Shown piece by piece: positions 5,747-10,303 of a stretch of DNA of 10,345 bases. The stretch is from the UHGV virus genome UHGV-0795596; one strand, given 5' to 3'. The notes beneath the pieces are model-generated. The model had not been told where the DNA came from. It saw nothing but the letters and a program-made list of their open reading frames with translations, and made no database searches. Source of the stretch: a virus. Position 1 is the first letter of the stretch; every line of letters starts with the position of its first letter. The position numbers were made by a program, and so were the translations under genes.

Positions 5747-6595
5747 ATGTCTCTTACGTCAAAACAGAAACTGCTAAAACTCATCAACACTGAAAACAAT
5801 ATTGTTCCGCCATTGACCTTCAGTGATGTTGATATCGGCGAACCTACTGGTACTGGGGTTGATACCCAGGTGGTTCTGACTTCTAAACTCAAAGGCGATG
5901 AGTCTACTACTTTAACTGTGACTTATCATCGTCGTAATTTGCCCGAATACCTAACAGGTGAGTTGGTATTCGGTAACGACGGTGTTGTAACCGCTGCAGA
6001 TTTGCTTAATGCAATCAACGCAAAATACGATTTAAATATTCTGCCGTCGGATATCATTGATGCGAAAGTTGAAGGTGAAACCCATCAGCTTACCGCTAAC
6101 GAGAAATCCTACGAATGGTGTGGCGAGGTGACACTCACGCTACGCGACCCTATTGATCTGGCTAAATTGTTACCTGTTACTCAATTAGAAAACCTGGTAG
6201 AGTATCCGTCCACTAAGAAAGGTAACGCTGCAGTTTATTCTTACCCAATTGACTTCACCGCAGAAAAAGATTACCTCGATCCGATTACCATTAACGACAC
6301 CGTCGACCTGGCTGAGTTAGCTACTAAGCTGGATAACGTCGTTGACGAGAAATGGGTAAGTGTACCTAAGAACGCTGCTAATAACCTGTACGGTGCTAAG
6401 GTTATCTACGATGGTCCTACCGCAGGTTTCGAAGGCGCAAATACGAAGTTCACACGTGTGTTGGTGCTGACGCTCAGCCCGTTGTGTTCTAACCTGACCG
6501 GTAATCTGTTAATCCATTTTAACGGTACCGATCGTCCAAAGTCGAAGATTGAATTAGCTAAAACTAATTCGGTCTTACCGGGATTCTTAGATTAA
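5747..6595 (+). CDS. hypothetical protein (282 aa), member of a three-gene paralog family
   Basis: ATG 5747 with only a weak SD-like GAG upstream. Its N-terminal roughly 110 aa align with the CDS at 6609 (LI...N...L...V.LG.P...G..T....S.K...T..Y.R...YL...TAADLL..IN..Y.L). Confidence 0.65.
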   Translation: MSLTSKQKLLKLINTENNIVPPLTFSDVDIGEPTGTGVDTQVVLTSKLKGDESTTLTVTYHRRNLPEYLTGELVFGNDGVVTAADLLNAINAKYDLNILPSDIIDAKVEGETHQLTANEKSYEWCGEVTLTLRDPIDLAKLLPVTQLENLVEYPSTKKGNAAVYSYPIDFTAEKDYLDPITINDTVDLAELATKLDNVVDEKWVSVPKNAANNLYGAKVIYDGPTAGFEGANTKFTRVLVLTLSPLCSNLTGNLLIHFNGTDRPKSKIELAKTNSVLPGFLD

Positions 6596-6608
6596 GAGGA
6601 TTACAGTA

Positions 6609-7106
6609 ATGACCAGTCAAGAAACTATCTTCGACCTTATTAAAAAGGCTAACCCAGACGCTGAGCTTGACACCGCCAAAGTCACGCTGGGCGATCCGGT
6701 TGTGACCACCGGTACTTACAATACCGAAATTACGGTTGCGTCAATTAAGAATCTCGGTTACACTAACGAACAAACGTTCCAGTATAACCGCATTGACGCA
6801 GGTTTATATTTCCTGAACGTATTACCGAAGCTGTTGGTAGAATCTGCAACGACTACCGCTGACTTACTGCCCGTCATTAACGAGCAGTACAGCCTAACCC
6901 TTACAGAAGACGACGTGTGGGTAGAGCAGGTCGGCGAGTTACCGTTAGACGGTAGCGCAATCGAACACGGTATTTTCTTCCGCCCTGAATGTTTAACCTG
7001 GGTAGGCGGTTTTACGGTGCGCGTTGCACGTAAAACTGCTGAAGATGCTGAACCTGCGCCAAAAGCAGCTAAAGCACGTACAACTCGTGCACGAAAATCC
7101 AAGTAA
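6609..7106 (+). CDS. hypothetical protein (165 aa), paralog of 5747-6595, with a basic Ala/Lys/Arg-rich C-terminal tail
   Basis: ATG 6609 with SD AAGAGGA at about 9 nt. The C-terminal 'RKTAEDAEPAPKAAKARTTRARKSK' looks like a nucleic-acid-binding tail. Followed by a terminator. Confidence 0.7.
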   Translation: MTSQETIFDLIKKANPDAELDTAKVTLGDPVVTTGTYNTEITVASIKNLGYTNEQTFQYNRIDAGLYFLNVLPKLLVESATTTADLLPVINEQYSLTLTEDDVWVEQVGELPLDGSAIEHGIFFRPECLTWVGGFTVRVARKTAEDAEPAPKAAKARTTRARKSK

Positions 7107-7109
7107 GAT

Positions 7110-7147
7110 TTGGGTGGGGTAAAACCCACCCAACGTTTTTCTTTTTT
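7110..7147 (+). terminator. rho-independent terminator (stem TTGGGTGGG / CCCACCCAA, loop GTAAAA, then T-tract)
   Basis: 9-bp hairpin followed by 'cgtttttctttttt', directly after the stop of the 6609 CDS. Confidence 0.75.
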
Positions 7148-7170
7148 GTGTAAAATGGGAGTTAAACAAA

Positions 7171-7761
7171 ATGGCTGAACGTTGGACTAAAGAAGGTATT
7201 ATTGAATCCAAAACGGATTTAGAAGGCGGGTACGTCAACGACCCTGACGACTTAGGTGCAGAAACGAACCACGGTATCACGGTAACGACTGCACGTGAGT
7301 ATGGTTATAAAGGGAAAATGAAAGACCTTACCCGTGTTCAAGCTTTTGACATTTACGATCGTGGTTGGTGGAAGAAACTCAAACTCGATGAGATTTTTGC
7401 TATCTCGCCTTTACTGGCTGACCGGATGTTTGATTTCGGAATTAACGCAGGTCGTGCCAACTGCGTGAAATCGCTCCAGCGTATTCTCAACGTGTTGAAC
7501 AACGAAGGTAAACTCTACGCGGACATCGATGCTGACGGTGGAATGGGGCCTAAAACGCTGGGCGCGTTGAACGCGTATCTGAAATACCGTAAAGATAAAG
7601 GGTTAAGCATTTTAATCTTTGCGTTAATCTCGCACCAAGTAACTTACTACACGGAAATCTCCGAAAAACGTAAGAGAAACGAGAAATACACCTACGGCTG
7701 GTACGGCCGCGTGTTCAGAGAAATGGCAGATTATGCGGTGAAAGCGGGGTTAGTAAAATGA
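7171..7761 (+). CDS. endolysin: glycoside hydrolase family 108 N-terminal domain plus PG_binding_3-type peptidoglycan-binding domain (196 aa)
   Basis: N-terminal 'LEGGYVNDPDDLGAETNHGIT' matches the GH108 signature (EGGY with catalytic Glu, then D.G..T..GIT). C-terminal 'YGWYGRV' matches the PG_binding_3 signature. SD GGGAG at 9 nt before ATG. No signal peptide or TM segment. Assigned from remembered family motifs, not a search. Confidence 0.8.
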   Translation: MAERWTKEGIIESKTDLEGGYVNDPDDLGAETNHGITVTTAREYGYKGKMKDLTRVQAFDIYDRGWWKKLKLDEIFAISPLLADRMFDFGINAGRANCVKSLQRILNVLNNEGKLYADIDADGGMGPKTLGALNAYLKYRKDKGLSILIFALISHQVTYYTEISEKRKRNEKYTYGWYGRVFREMADYAVKAGLVK

Positions 7762-9036: not shown

Positions 9037-9119
9037 CTATTTCTAAGGTGTTTATACCTTAATTTGTATAAAGACGCTTAGAACGCGTTTTACGCACGAT
9101 TTAGCGGTTAAAATGAATA

Positions 9120-9153
9120 TACCCTACTCCCGATAAGGAGTAGGGTAGTTTTT
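9120..9153. terminator. bidirectional rho-independent terminator (stem TACCCTACTCC / GGAGTAGGGTA, loop CGATAA, then GTTTTTA)
   Basis: Perfect 11-bp hairpin between convergent genes (plus-strand CDS ending 9036, minus-strand CDS ending 9155). T-run on the plus side; T-containing tract on the minus side. Confidence 0.75.
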
Positions 9154-9154
9154 A

Positions 9155-9634
9155 TTATTCCGCAGGATGGAGCATTGTTCCAGTGTCAGGAGCTACACCT
9201 TCCTTACAGTGGAAGAAAGTAATGCCTTTACCATCACCCGTTTTATATTCTAAAGTAGAATACGCAAATGTTGGTGTTTTTGAAAGTAACCCATTTACAC
9301 GGTAGTAACGTTGTCCCGTGATAGGATCGATATTCCCATTAACTTTACCTAATAGATCTTTATAAAGTTGGGGTGACTCAATCTTACCATTTGGCCAGGT
9401 GGCTACCCAGTTAGCACCAGTATCGATTACAGTTACTGAGCCTAACATTAGGTTAGTCGAATTGACGACAGGTTTATAATTTACAAAATCTTGCTCTACA
9501 CCCATACAGGTGTAAATAACCATGTCGTGTGGCTCTACGGGTACAGTCGAGAATTGACCGTTAGCGGTGGGTTGTAGGGCACAGCTTGCCAACGAAAGTG
9601 CTGCAGTTACAACAAGTAGAAAACGTTTTAGCAT
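9155..9634 (-). CDS. predicted lipoprotein (159 aa precursor; signal peptide MLKRFLLVVTAALSLA, lipobox L-A-S-C with Cys18, +2 residue Ala suggests outer-membrane sorting)
   Basis: The only convincing minus-strand gene. Minus-strand SD AAGGGTGA 5 nt before ATG. Classic n-region, h-region and lipobox. Two more Cys residues in the mature part. Bounded by its own terminator and a divergent promoter region. Confidence 0.8.
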   Translation of the reverse strand: MLKRFLLVVTAALSLASCALQPTANGQFSTVPVEPHDMVIYTCMGVEQDFVNYKPVVNSTNLMLGSVTVIDTGANWVATWPNGKIESPQLYKDLLGKVNGNIDPITGQRYYRVNGLLSKTPTFAYSTLEYKTGDGKGITFFHCKEGVAPDTGTMLHPAE

Positions 9635-9772
9635 GTTTTCACCCTTCTATAAAAAGTTAAAAATAATAATTTTACAGACAACCCTTACTGCTGTCTGTCA
9701 TAACTATTAACAACACTTCTATAATCCGAACAATACTATGCAAACCACCCATACTACTTACGAGGTAAAACA
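9635..9772. promoter_or_regulatory. divergent intergenic control region: plus-strand -10 TATAAT (9720-9725), repeated 'cttctataa' motif (9643-9651 and 9716-9724), and a 7-bp inverted repeat ACAGACA...TGTCTGT (9675-9699)
   Basis: All elements read directly from sequence. SD GAGGT is 6 nt before ATG 9773. No good -35 hexamer at 17-bp spacing, so promoter strength and type are uncertain. Confidence 0.35.
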
Positions 9773-10303
9773 ATGGCTAAAACTTTTCAACAGCAGCTTA
9801 TCGAGATTGTAATTGCTAAAAACAACCAAACTGCTTCTAAGCTGACTGTAAATGATGTTAATTTTAGTGCTGTCGCTGAGTTCACCGGAGAAGCTGGCCG
9901 CAACACTAAAATTACTCTGACCGCCAAGGCAGAAAGCCAGAACTTCAAAGGCGAGAAAGAATTCCACTATACTCGTCTTTCCTGCGACATCGTTGGTGAA
10001 GTTGAAGTAACTGCACCTACTACCGATTTCGATTCACCAACGAAGATCCTGGCGAAAGTTAACGCAGCCATGGCTGAGAAAGGGTACACCGATGACGAGT
10101 TCGGTGAAAACGACCTGCAAACTATTTCCCGTGAAGAAGAAGGCAAAACCATTTACGTGGTAACGGTTGTGGCTGGCCACTTGAAGTTCCTGCCTGGTAC
10201 TGTCGCGACGTATAAAGTTACTCCTCCGGCTCCTGAGAAAGTAGCACTGAGCGGTTTGGAAGGTGAACTGGATGGCTTCACCGCACCGTCTCCTAAAGAA
10301 TAA
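9773..10303 (+). CDS. hypothetical protein (176 aa), probably highly expressed; distant third member of the 5747/6609 paralog family
   Basis: ATG 9773 with SD GAGGT. Codon choice is visibly more host-optimal than neighbours (Leu mostly CTG, Arg CGT, Gly GGT/GGC). N-terminal 'LI..V..KNN...LTVNDV......G...T.ITLTAK......Y.R' resembles the 5747 and 6609 N-termini. Confidence 0.75.
   Translation: MAKTFQQQLIEIVIAKNNQTASKLTVNDVNFSAVAEFTGEAGRNTKITLTAKAESQNFKGEKEFHYTRLSCDIVGEVEVTAPTTDFDSPTKILAKVNAAMAEKGYTDDEFGENDLQTISREEEGKTIYVVTVVAGHLKFLPGTVATYKVTPPAPEKVALSGLEGELDGFTAPSPKE

What the first reader, a model, noticed from the sequence alone, without database searches (positions are those of the whole stretch)
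5747..10303. Three-member paralogous gene family split around the lysis cluster
The CDSs at 5747-6595, 6609-7106 and (more distantly) 9773-10303 share a colinear N-terminal region of about 100 aa (L-I/hydrophobic helix, N..., L-T-x-x-D-V, ..., T-x-[IV]-[TL]-[LV]-T-[AS]-K, ... Y-x-R ..., then an A-D-L-L/I-N motif) but have unrelated C-termini: a long C-terminal extension, a basic AKA/RAR tail, and a PAPEKV Pro/Ala stretch. Two copies are in tandem behind one terminator. The third has strongly host-optimised codons and its own -10/SD, suggesting an abundant protein. The pattern fits a diversifying family built on a shared scaffold with variable effector or binding C-termini, possibly structural or decoration proteins. 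I could not place the family by memory.
Basis: seen in the sequence. Interest (0 to 1): 0.5.

Follow-up and report, generated by a model that had tools for sequence, protein, structure and literature searches.

The report
Jumbo-phage DUF7941 virion protein paralogues
The three genes are real paralogues, but they belong to an already described family of virion proteins (Pfam DUF7941, "Paralog family B" of Salmonella phage SPN3US) found only in phiKZ-like jumbo phages, so this is a sound but ordinary finding.

Summary

The window comes from a ~222-227 kb phiKZ-like (Chimalliviridae) phage of Salmonella, E. coli and Shigella, syntenic with SPN3US. A, B and C are closest to SPN3US gp138, gp141 (N-terminal half only) and gp160. 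gp141 and gp160 are among the most abundant SPN3US virion proteins, and C has the highest codon adaptation in the window.

"Three members" is an undercount. A fourth copy (D) lies just past the window end, and a complete close relative carries eight.

The shared domain is about 145 aa, not 100. The C-termini are not all unrelated: A, C and D end in a conserved peptide, [DE]-L-[AS]-x2-N-x2-L-x-G-F. A looser form of it closes 58 of 77 short family members elsewhere.

Most likely function, taken from a 2026 Goslar preprint: self-polymerising virion filament subunits. Whether they sit on the baseplate or the head is disputed in the literature.

Verdict: a new member of a known kind.

The parts
5587..5614 (+). 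Intrinsic-terminator-like hairpin (12 bp stem, T-run) ending the upstream gene. It marks the start of the A-B unit.
   Evidence: sequence
5747..6595 (+). Gene A, 282 aa, the only full-length DUF7941 protein here. Layout: N-terminal domain about aa 1-135 (5747-6151), linker about aa 136-165 (6152-6241), C-terminal domain about aa 166-259 (6242-6523), extra tail aa 260-282 (6524-6592). Closest to SPN3US gp138.
   Evidence: Pfam 180.9 bits, residues 2-259 on profile 5-275/276. 45% identity to SPN3US gp138, E 2e-72. phmmer hit to phiKZ gp127, PDB 9xqd, E 1.9e-7. AF2: N-terminal domain pLDDT 71-85, C-terminal domain not resolved.
6554..6586 (+). C-terminal peptide motif of A, LAKTNSVLPGF, two residues before the stop. 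SPN3US gp138 lacks it and ends ...LHFNN.
6609..7106 (+). Gene B, 165 aa, a short form. It has the DUF7941 N-terminal domain (aa 1-142, 6609-7034) and a basic Pro/Ala/Lys/Arg tail (aa 143-165, 7035-7103) that varies in length among relatives (154, 158 or 165 aa). It has no LxGF motif. Its own AGAGG Shine-Dalgarno follows directly after A's stop.
   Evidence: Pfam 99.2 bits, residues 2-143 on profile 7-155. 38% identity over 153 aa to the N-terminal half of SPN3US gp141. Family alignment. Shine-Dalgarno.
7110..7133 (+). Terminator-like hairpin (9 bp stem, T-run) 4 nt after B's stop. It closes the A-B unit.
7171..7761 (+). Context: endolysin with GH108 muramidase and PG_binding_3 domains. Counterpart of SPN3US gp156.
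7878..8543 (+). Context: DUF1353 protein. The ATG at 7878 is the start called in relatives; the ORF list begins at the GTG at 7869. Counterpart of SPN3US gp157, which was reported as a virion protein.
   Evidence: PMC5694885
8521..9036 (+). Context: phrog_894 'endolysin'-like protein with H-x6-D and H-x-D motifs, read by eye as a LAS-type peptidase signature. No Pfam, NCBIfam or PDB hit.
9120..9147 (.). Bidirectional terminator-like hairpin between the convergent genes 8521-9036 (+) and 9155-9634 (-).
9155..9634 (-). Context: predicted lipoprotein (signal peptide with lipobox L-A-S-C), phrog_9559. Counterpart of SPN3US gp159.
9773..10303 (+). Gene C, 176 aa, a short form. It has the DUF7941 N-terminal domain (aa 1-150, 9773-10222) and a Pro-rich spacer plus conserved tail (aa 151-176). 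Closest to the abundant SPN3US virion protein gp160. Highest codon adaptation in the window. GAGG Shine-Dalgarno.
10247..10279 (+). C-terminal peptide motif of C, LSGLEGELDGF, nearly invariant across the C family while the middle of the protein varies.
10311..10345 (.). Not part of the phage. The last 35 nt differ from all four related contigs, which carry a G-rich hairpin terminator here followed by the fourth family gene D.

Best explanation
A, B and C are members of DUF7941 (PF25613), the same family as SPN3US 'Paralog family B'. It is a family of virion proteins known from phiKZ-like (Chimalliviridae) jumbo phages.

Each protein carries the same alpha/beta N-terminal domain of about 145 aa. 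A adds the linker and C-terminal domain of the full-length form, then an extra tail. B is an N-terminal domain with a short, fast-evolving basic tail. C, and its tandem paralogue D just outside the window, is an N-terminal domain followed by a conserved peptide, [DE]-L-[AS]-x2-N-x2-L-x-G-F.

[quoted passage not shown] The proteins would then polymerise head to tail into flexible filaments carried by the virion. In this reading:
- C and D are the abundant bulk subunits.
- A is the full-length subunit, and in this lineage it has two donor peptides.
- B can accept a peptide but cannot donate one, so it would cap a chain and expose a polycationic tip.

Shown here: family membership, fold, orthology, gene organisation, codon bias and motif conservation. 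Inferred: polymerisation, the role of each paralogue, and the location on the virion.
For: Membership:
- Pfam scores 180.9, 99.2 and 37.8 against a cut-off of 27. D scores 38.4.

Fold:
- The C model has pLDDT 93.2 and pTM 0.78.
- It has 47 BFVD matches with E <= 1e-3. Every named one is from a jumbo phage (Erwinia, Klebsiella, Pseudomonas, Serratia), with lengths of 139-829 aa.
- A and C show the same order of helices and strands.

Orthology and synteny with SPN3US.

Virion presence and abundance of orthologues:
- SPN3US gp141 and gp160 are present at more than 300 copies per particle (PMC5694885).
- Goslar gp22 and gp23 are present at about 580 and 2,140 copies. Purified gp22 forms filaments. 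AlphaFold 3 predicts head-to-tail dimers (bioRxiv 10.64898/2026.04.21.720040).
- phiKZ gp127 is modelled in the outer baseplate (PMC13250141).

Codon bias:
- C has CAI 0.50 and D 0.47, against 0.17-0.41 for the other window genes.
- The C orthologue ranks 8th of 174 ORFs.

The peptide:
- The strict motif occurs only 0-7 residues before the stops of A, C, D and SPN3US gp145, gp151 and gp160 in 225 kb of six-frame translation. Shuffles give about 0.25 matches.
- It is nearly invariant in the C family.
- A looser form, [LIVM]-x-G-[FL], lies in the last 25 aa of 58 of 77 short single-domain representatives. The same pattern occurs in 1% of 25-aa body windows, and in 2.8 +/- 1.7 of the 77 tails after shuffling.
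- It also sits in 41 of 109 post-domain segments of proteins that carry 2-4 fused N-terminal domains. Such fusions are what a serial assembly would predict.
- The tail of C is modelled with pLDDT about 90 although it is coil.
Against:
- Location is contested. Two SPN3US tailless mutants retain the Paralog B proteins, and the authors count them as head proteins. The baseplate placement rests on one phiKZ protein, docked as an AlphaFold model into a 4.4 A map.
- The motif statistics are biased. The search profile included the tail, so high-ranking hits are enriched for it. The strict pattern was also derived from some of the sequences it then 'finds'.
- The roles proposed for A (two donor peptides) and B (cap) are deductions from sequence alone.
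Confidence: 0.7

Rival explanations
1. The family is the same, but the proteins belong to the head: a capsid-associated layer, or internal or ejected proteins. They would not be baseplate-anchored filaments. B's basic tail would then contact DNA.
For: - SPN3US Paralog family B members, including gp138, gp141 and gp160, were detected in purified tailless particles of mutants 64(am27) and 255(am107) and were classed as head proteins. gp141 and gp160 were annotated 'Head ejection?'.
- B has a Lys/Arg-rich tail.
Against: - phiKZ gp127 is placed at the end of the gp139 band in the outer baseplate. A gp126-gp127 dimer fits unexplained density there.
- In the passages read, the Goslar authors list the DUF7941 proteins among abundant proteins not modelled in their virion structure.
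- Self-assembling filaments could co-purify with heads.
- Some family members in other phages carry carbohydrate-binding, glycosidase or beta-helix domains typical of external host-recognition proteins. One BFVD match is annotated as a tail fiber protein.
- No propeptide or protease processing was reported for this family among the cleaved SPN3US head proteins in the passages read.
Confidence: 0.22
2. B is a decaying truncated copy of a full-length paralogue. It would be a gene remnant with no role of its own.
For: - B aligns only to the N-terminal half of SPN3US gp141.
- Its tail is low-complexity and varies in length: 154, 158 or 165 aa.
Against: - Its N-terminal domain is 80-98% conserved across relatives.
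- It has an intact ORF, its own strong Shine-Dalgarno and above-median codon adaptation, 0.39.
- Short forms are the rule in this lineage, 7 of 8 members, and exist in phiKZ (gp126) and Goslar (gp23).
Confidence: 0.05
3. The resemblance of C to A and B is chance or compositional. Only A and B would be related.
For: - BLASTP A-C and B-C are not significant.
- hhalign of the C family against the B family gives E 0.0075 and probability 5%.
Against: - Pfam 37.8 bits is above the curated cut-off.
- phrog_1037 matches C at 6.5e-11.
- hhalign of the C family against the A family gives E 7e-6.
- BLAST links C to SPN3US gp151 and Goslar gp23.
Confidence: 0.01

Closest known systems
Pfam PF25613 (DUF7941), as characterised in phage Goslar (gp22, gp23 and eight others) and phiKZ (gp126, gp127, gp143): bioRxiv 10.64898/2026.04.21.720040
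   Same: - Same N-terminal domain.
- Same split into a full-length form (N-terminal domain, linker, C-terminal domain: A like gp22 and gp127) and short forms (N-terminal domain plus linker peptide: C and D like gp23).
- Full and short forms are encoded side by side, in tandem in phiKZ and divergently in Goslar, and a member sits next to the endolysin.
- The short form is probably abundant.
   Different: - Sequence identity is low: C to Goslar gp23 is 35% over 48 aa, and A to gp127 is 26%.
- This lineage has 8 members, 7 of them short. None at this locus carries a carbohydrate-binding or enzymatic domain.
- A carries a second LxGF peptide at its extreme C-terminus.
- B replaces the linker peptide with a basic tail.
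SPN3US 'Paralog family B' (gp83, gp138-154, gp160/161, gp237): PMC5105663, PMC5694885
   Same: - Direct counterparts: A to gp138 (45%), B to gp141 N-terminal half (38%), C and D to gp160 (45% and 36%).
- Same flanking genes and order: small genes, then family array, endolysin, DUF1353, unknown, lipoprotein on the minus strand, gp160-like, DUF4376, and two radical SAM genes.
   Different: - SPN3US has a 17-gene, 20 kb array (gp138-154) between the gp138 position and the endolysin. This phage has only A and B there.
- SPN3US has one gp160. This phage has a tandem pair, C and D, 33% identical.
- SPN3US gp138 lacks A's extra tail.
phiKZ gp131-135 and SPN3US gp168-170 ('Paralog family C'), baseplate fibre proteins with a shared N-terminal domain and varied C-termini
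   Same: The design principle is the same: a paralogous virion family with a conserved N-terminal attachment module and divergent C-termini at the baseplate periphery.
   Different: - It is a different domain. phmmer against all PDB chains matched A only to gp127 and matched B and C to no phage protein. That library contains entry 9xqd, the outer-baseplate region; whether the gp131-like fibre N-terminal domains (described from a separate fibre map) are among its chains was not checked.
- Those proteins are much larger (135-188 kDa in SPN3US).

Membership tests
Pfam PF25613 DUF7941 | Match to the family HMM at or above the curated gathering score (27 bits) | tested here: met
   A 180.9, B 99.2, C 37.8 bits. 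D 38.4. All eight copies in the complete relative NZ_CP173450.1 score 30.7-178.1 bits.
Pfam PF25613 DUF7941 | N-terminal domain has the fold of the only solved member, phiKZ gp127 residues 1-150 (PDB 9xqd) | tested here: met
Pfam PF25613 DUF7941 | Encoded by a chimallivirus (phiKZ-like jumbo phage) | tested here: met
   - tblastn hits for A (170 records) and C (62 records) are dominated by phiKZ-like jumbo phages of Erwinia, Pseudomonas, Salmonella, Serratia and Klebsiella; all listed records are 197-251 kb.
- Gene order matches SPN3US, genus Seoulvirus.
- Relatives are 221-227 kb contigs.
- Size, hosts and synteny fit the proposed Chimalliviridae genus 'Bapsvirus'.
- Chimallin and the phage RNA polymerase genes were not looked for.
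Pfam PF25613 DUF7941 | Protein is incorporated into virions | not testable with these tools
   Only by homology: SPN3US gp138, gp141 and gp160 and Goslar gp22 and gp23 were detected by virion mass spectrometry. The high codon adaptation of C is consistent with this.
Pfam PF25613 DUF7941 | Head-to-tail oligomerisation through the post-domain linker, with filament formation (proposed for Goslar gp22 and gp23) | not testable with these tools
   No multimer prediction was available. Indirect evidence: a conserved post-domain LxGF peptide, natural fusions of 2-4 N-terminal domains with the peptide between them, and a confidently modelled tail in the C monomer.
SPN3US Paralog family B | Detectable homology to SPN3US gp138-154 and gp160, in the syntenic position | tested here: met
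   A to gp138 E 2e-72. B to gp141 E 5e-22. C to gp160 E 5e-39. D to gp160 E 5e-29. Flanking genes are conserved.
PF12699 (phiKZ internal head proteins, SPN3US Paralog family A) | Match to PF12699 | tested here: not met
   The Pfam scan at E <= 0.1 gives DUF7941 as the only match above its curated cut-off for A, B and C.
phiKZ gp131-like fibre family (SPN3US Paralog family C) | Sequence similarity to the gp131-135 N-terminal domain | tested here: inconclusive
   phmmer against all PDB chains returned only gp127 for A and no phage protein for B or C. That library contains entry 9xqd, the outer-baseplate region; whether the gp131/133/134/135 N-terminal domains (built into a separate fibre map) are among its chains was not checked. 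No direct comparison with gp131-135 sequences was run.

The most novel reading that the evidence does not exclude
[quoted passage not shown] The paralogue set of this phage would then encode a filament 'grammar':
- C and D are chain extenders. C is the exposed, fast-diversifying subunit: 57% identity where its neighbours A, B and D are 91-98% identical.
- A is a subunit with two donor peptides that could branch or anchor chains.
- B has no tag and would be a chain terminator presenting a polycationic tip to the anionic cell surface.

The contraction from 20 members (SPN3US) to 8, mostly short, would be a natural minimal version of the system.
Probability: 0.3. Interest if true: 0.55.

Novelty: new member of a known kind. 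Interest (0 to 1): 0.3.

Why it matters
It places three 'hypothetical' genes of a very common but uncultured enterobacterial jumbo-phage lineage in a family that is only now being characterised.

It also gives that family a compact natural test case: one full-length and seven short members, set against 20 in SPN3US.

Two points could help settle open questions. The first is the conserved C-terminal peptide, together with B as a member that lacks it. This suggests direct experiments on how these very abundant virion proteins assemble. The second is that the head-versus-baseplate disagreement between the SPN3US proteomics and the phiKZ and Goslar structures applies to these genes and remains unresolved.

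For annotation, A, B and C can be named 'DUF7941 virion protein'.

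Tried and rejected
- Homologue searches for A and B returned only relatives at 80% identity or more. The A and B profiles were therefore shallow, the hhalign scores modest, and the AF2 model of A unresolved beyond residue 135 (pLDDT < 50 for 136-268). That model was not used for fold search.
- Sigma-70 promoter scan: 11 sites against 9.0 +/- 2.5 expected. 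I give it no weight.
- A shared 'ACTAT[TG]' or 'TATG' element upstream of A, C and D was seen by eye. It is too short to test in 10 kb, so I make no claim.
- Rfam and tRNA scans of the window found nothing.
- NCBIfam has no model for A or C. The endolysin is far below the cut-off for 'holin-associated muramidase'.
- The PDB sequence search for the 8521-9036 protein found nothing.
- phiKZ gp143 shows no BLAST similarity to C, and only E 1.2e-4 to my own N-terminal-domain HMM. I do not claim one-to-one orthology with phiKZ genes.
- The weak Pfam hits of C to Spiralin and BACON are below their cut-offs and were dismissed.

Full report
**What is in the sequence.**
A and B are 13 nt apart. B has its own AGAGG Shine-Dalgarno directly after A's stop. 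Strong hairpin/T-run terminators sit at 5587-5614 and 7110-7133, and none was called in the gap between the two genes. A-B therefore looks like one two-gene unit.

Between B and C lie four genes:
- a GH108 plus PG_binding_3 endolysin (7171-7761);
- a DUF1353 protein (7878-8543);
- a phrog_894 'endolysin'-like protein with H-x6-D and H-x-D motifs (8521-9036);
- a lipoprotein on the minus strand (9155-9634).

'Lysis cluster' is fair for at least the first of them. No holin or spanin was recognised.

**Is the similarity real?**

The family models settle the question:
- All three exceed Pfam's curated cut-off (27 bits) for PF25613 DUF7941, at 180.9, 99.2 and 37.8 bits.
- All three hit PHROGs 1037 and 2935, 'virion structural protein'.
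- A matches the whole 276-position Pfam profile. B matches positions 7-155 only. C matches positions 7-99.

**Where the window comes from.**
- Only 454 bp of the searched stretch (window 5000-10345) resembles any catalogued phage at the DNA level.
- The proteins match phiKZ-like jumbo phages at 45% identity or less.
- The exact C protein occurs on metagenomic and isolate contigs of up to 224,842 bp. Relatives are annotated in Salmonella, E. coli and Shigella assemblies.
- One contig (L006) is 99.98% identical to window 1-10310.
- A complete 221,873 bp circular record filed as an E. coli plasmid (NZ_CP173450.1) is 86% identical over 93% of the queried stretch, window 5600-10310. An Enterobacter 'plasmid' of 222,441 bp is 87% identical.
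- Size, hosts and synteny with Seoulvirus fit the recently proposed Chimalliviridae genus 'Bapsvirus', found in bacterial assemblies (PMC12768965).

**Orthology and organisation.**
Gene order is that of SPN3US. A is closest to gp138 (45%). B is closest to the N-terminal half of gp141 (38% over 153 aa). C is closest to gp160 (45%).

There are three corrections to 'three-member family split around the lysis cluster'.

1. A fourth member, D (176 aa, 33% identical to C, Pfam 38.4 bits), lies immediately after C in all four related contigs. The window stops 35 nt short of it, and those 35 nt are not phage sequence.
2. The complete relative carries eight members that all pass Pfam's cut-off: one full-length and seven short, of 159-187 aa.
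3. The 'split' is conserved synteny.
   - SPN3US has the same layout, but with a 17-gene array (gp138-154) where this phage has only A and B.
   - Goslar has gp22 and gp23 next to a GH108-like gene.
   - phiKZ has the gp127-gp126 tandem pair, plus gp143 directly upstream of endolysin gp144.

**What the family is known to do.**
SPN3US work described 'Paralog family B' with 20-21 members. gp141 and gp160 are among the most abundant virion proteins, at more than 300 copies each. The family was assigned to the head because it persists in tailless mutants (PMC5105663, PMC5694885, PMC10052503).

The 2026 phiKZ atlas models gp127 at the outer end of each baseplate 'star lobe' (PMC13250141).

A 2026 preprint on Goslar names the DUF7941 family and makes several points:
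- It measures about 580 copies of gp22 and about 2,140 copies of gp23 per virion.
- Purified gp22 forms filaments.
- AlphaFold 3 predicts head-to-tail docking of one protomer's linker, or linker plus C-terminal domain, on the next protomer's N-terminal domain.
- It proposes a baseplate-anchored 'fiber cloud' for host recognition.

The head and baseplate assignments conflict, and I could not resolve that here.

I used the Sharp-Li E. coli codon weights, entered from memory. C has CAI 0.50 and D 0.47, against 0.17-0.41 for every other gene in the window. In the complete relative, the C orthologue (0.548) ranks 8th of 174 long ORFs, where the median is 0.306. Together with the abundance of SPN3US gp160, this supports an abundant protein. 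'Strongly' optimised is too strong a word. The '-10' argument has no support: sigma-70-like sites are at chance level. From general knowledge, these phages use their own RNA polymerases.

**The C-termini.**
They are not simply unrelated.
- C ends ...PAPEKVALSGLEGELDGFTAPSPKE.
- D ends ...RIDLATTNGELDGFTS.
- A has a 23-residue tail after its C-terminal domain, which its SPN3US orthologue lacks. It ends ...KSKIELAKTNSVLPGFLD.
- SPN3US gp145, gp151 and gp160 end ...NGEL[DN]GF.

MAFFT aligns the A and C tails on its own.

Evidence that this peptide is a real feature:
- The pattern L[ASTD]x2[NED]x2LxGF occurs in 225 kb of six-frame translation only at these C-termini, 0-7 residues from the stop. 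Shuffles give about 0.25 matches.
- It is nearly invariant in the C family, while residues 70-150 vary.
- A profile search of 1.84 billion cluster representatives found 899 relatives.
- Of 77 short single-domain representatives, 58 carry [LIVM]-x-G-[FL] in their last 25 residues. The rate is 1% in 25-aa windows of the protein body. After shuffling, 2.8 +/- 1.7 of the 77 tails carry it.
- 47 representatives carry two or more fused N-terminal domains (the search reported up to four matched stretches per protein). In these, the same peptide often sits between consecutive domains, in 41 of 109 segments.

Caveats: the search profile included the tail, and the strict pattern was derived from some of the sequences it matches.

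I read the peptide as the conserved core of the 'disordered linker' described in the Goslar preprint. It is therefore the likely donor element in head-to-tail assembly. This is inference, because no multimer prediction was available.

B lacks the peptide. Its residues 143-165 form a Pro/Ala/Lys/Arg tail that changes length among near-identical relatives. That would make B an acceptor-only subunit, possibly a chain cap. This too is inference.

**Diversification.**
I compared the window's phage with the E. coli 'plasmid' phage:

| Protein | Identity |
|---|---|
| A | 94% |
| B | 98% |
| D | 91% |
| Endolysin | 98% |
| C | 57% |
| Lipoprotein (adjacent) | 73% |
| DUF4376 (adjacent) | 67% |
| orf190 (adjacent) | 52% |

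The abundant subunit C therefore sits in a mosaic hot spot.

**Verdict.**
The family is already in Pfam, was described in SPN3US in 2016-2017, and was characterised in a 2026 preprint. These genes are new, divergent members in an uncultured but widespread phage lineage.

The points that go modestly beyond what I found in the literature are the conserved C-terminal peptide, the extra copy of it on A, the tag-less B, and the contraction of the array from 17 genes to 2.

Noticed in passing
L006:10597-11127 (just beyond window 10345); also L003-L005: A fourth DUF7941 gene, D (176 aa, 33% identical to C, ends ...NGELDGFTS), follows C in tandem behind a G-rich hairpin terminator. The window is cut just before it.
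   Followed up: yes
window 10311-10345: The last 35 nt (ACGATCTGCGTGGTCGGCGTCTCTCAAGGCACACA) match none of four related contigs, which are collinear up to 10310. From memory, the reverse complement starts like the core of the 454 'B' sequencing adaptor (TGTGTGCCTTG). It is probably an assembly or adaptor artefact at a contig end.
   Followed up: partly
NZ_CP173450.1 (E. coli 98232 'plasmid' p98232-contig_4, 221,873 bp, circular); NZ_CP134650.1 (Enterobacter ludwigii 'plasmid', 222,441 bp): Complete genomes of this jumbo-phage lineage are deposited as bacterial plasmids. Many Salmonella, E. coli and Shigella assemblies carry contigs of 220-227 kb. This fits the 'bacterial assembly-associated phage' genus 'Bapsvirus' proposed in PMC12768965.
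   Followed up: partly
NZ_CP173450.1 44085-44597(-), 54264-54827(-), 73927-74454(-), 189719-190282(+): Four further short DUF7941 genes (170-187 aa) lie elsewhere in the complete relative. Three of them sit near genes annotated as tail fiber, tail protein or SLT-domain protein. The lineage therefore has 8 members, 7 of them short.
   Followed up: yes
window 9155-10303, compared with NZ_CP173450.1: This is a mosaic hot spot. C is 57% and the lipoprotein 73% identical between two phages whose A, B, D, endolysin and DUF1353 proteins are 91-98% identical. DUF4376 (67%) and the next gene (52%) are also variable.
   Followed up: partly
window 3501-3929 and 5149-5580: A second local paralogue pair: two proteins of 142 and 143 aa, 33% identical (E 2e-27). 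The second matches phrog_8484, of unknown function. They flank the 373-aa gene at 3951-5072.
   Followed up: partly
window 2163-2708 and 3951-5072: Both ORFs are internally duplicated. The halves of 2163-2708 are 41% identical (E 1e-22). In 3951-5072, residues 103-190 resemble residues 219-306 (30%, E 2e-11). The 3951-5072 ORF has no Pfam or PHROG family; the 2163-2708 ORF was not scanned.
   Followed up: partly
window 7758-7862 (+): A 34-aa ORF overlaps the endolysin stop (MNWFAKLLVLLWKALTSGRKRKDEKRGQEFFWFL). It has a hydrophobic N-terminus and a basic C-terminus, and is called as a gene in two related contigs. It could be a small membrane protein of the lysis module.
   Followed up: no
window 8521-9036 (+): This protein matches phrog_894 ('endolysin') and carries SQHKFGNAID and WLHID motifs, read by eye as a LAS/M15-type zinc peptidase signature. 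It has no Pfam, NCBIfam or PDB sequence hit. It may be a second peptidoglycan hydrolase.
   Followed up: partly
L007:7170-9347 (SPN3US gp155); P0209, P0212, P0215, P0223 and others: Some family members contain 2-4 N-terminal domains fused in one chain. SPN3US gp155 has two. Metagenomic proteins of 340-2,032 aa show up to four matched stretches in the profile search. The LxGF-type peptide often lies between the domains.
   Followed up: partly
window 6380-6463 (A residues 212-239); also SPN3US gp142 and gp144, Goslar gp22: The C-terminal domain of full-length members gives a weak second match to the N-T-x-V-x-L-T hairpin region of my N-terminal-domain HMM (for example A 'NTKFTRVLVLTLS' against 'DTQVVLTSK'). 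This hints that the C-terminal domain is an old partial duplication. The match is not significant on its own.
   Followed up: no
L001 and L007 (SPN3US gp145-153): The SPN3US array contains three repeated triplets: gp145-147, gp148-150 and gp151-153. Each is a DUF7941 N-terminal-domain protein of 470-499 aa followed by two proteins of about 330 and about 300 aa, which end in ...ELVE/ELIED and ...ELVLP/ELVLS. In gp145 and gp151 the first protein ends in NGEL[DN]GF; the end of gp148 was not examined. This phage lacks all of them at this locus.
   Followed up: no
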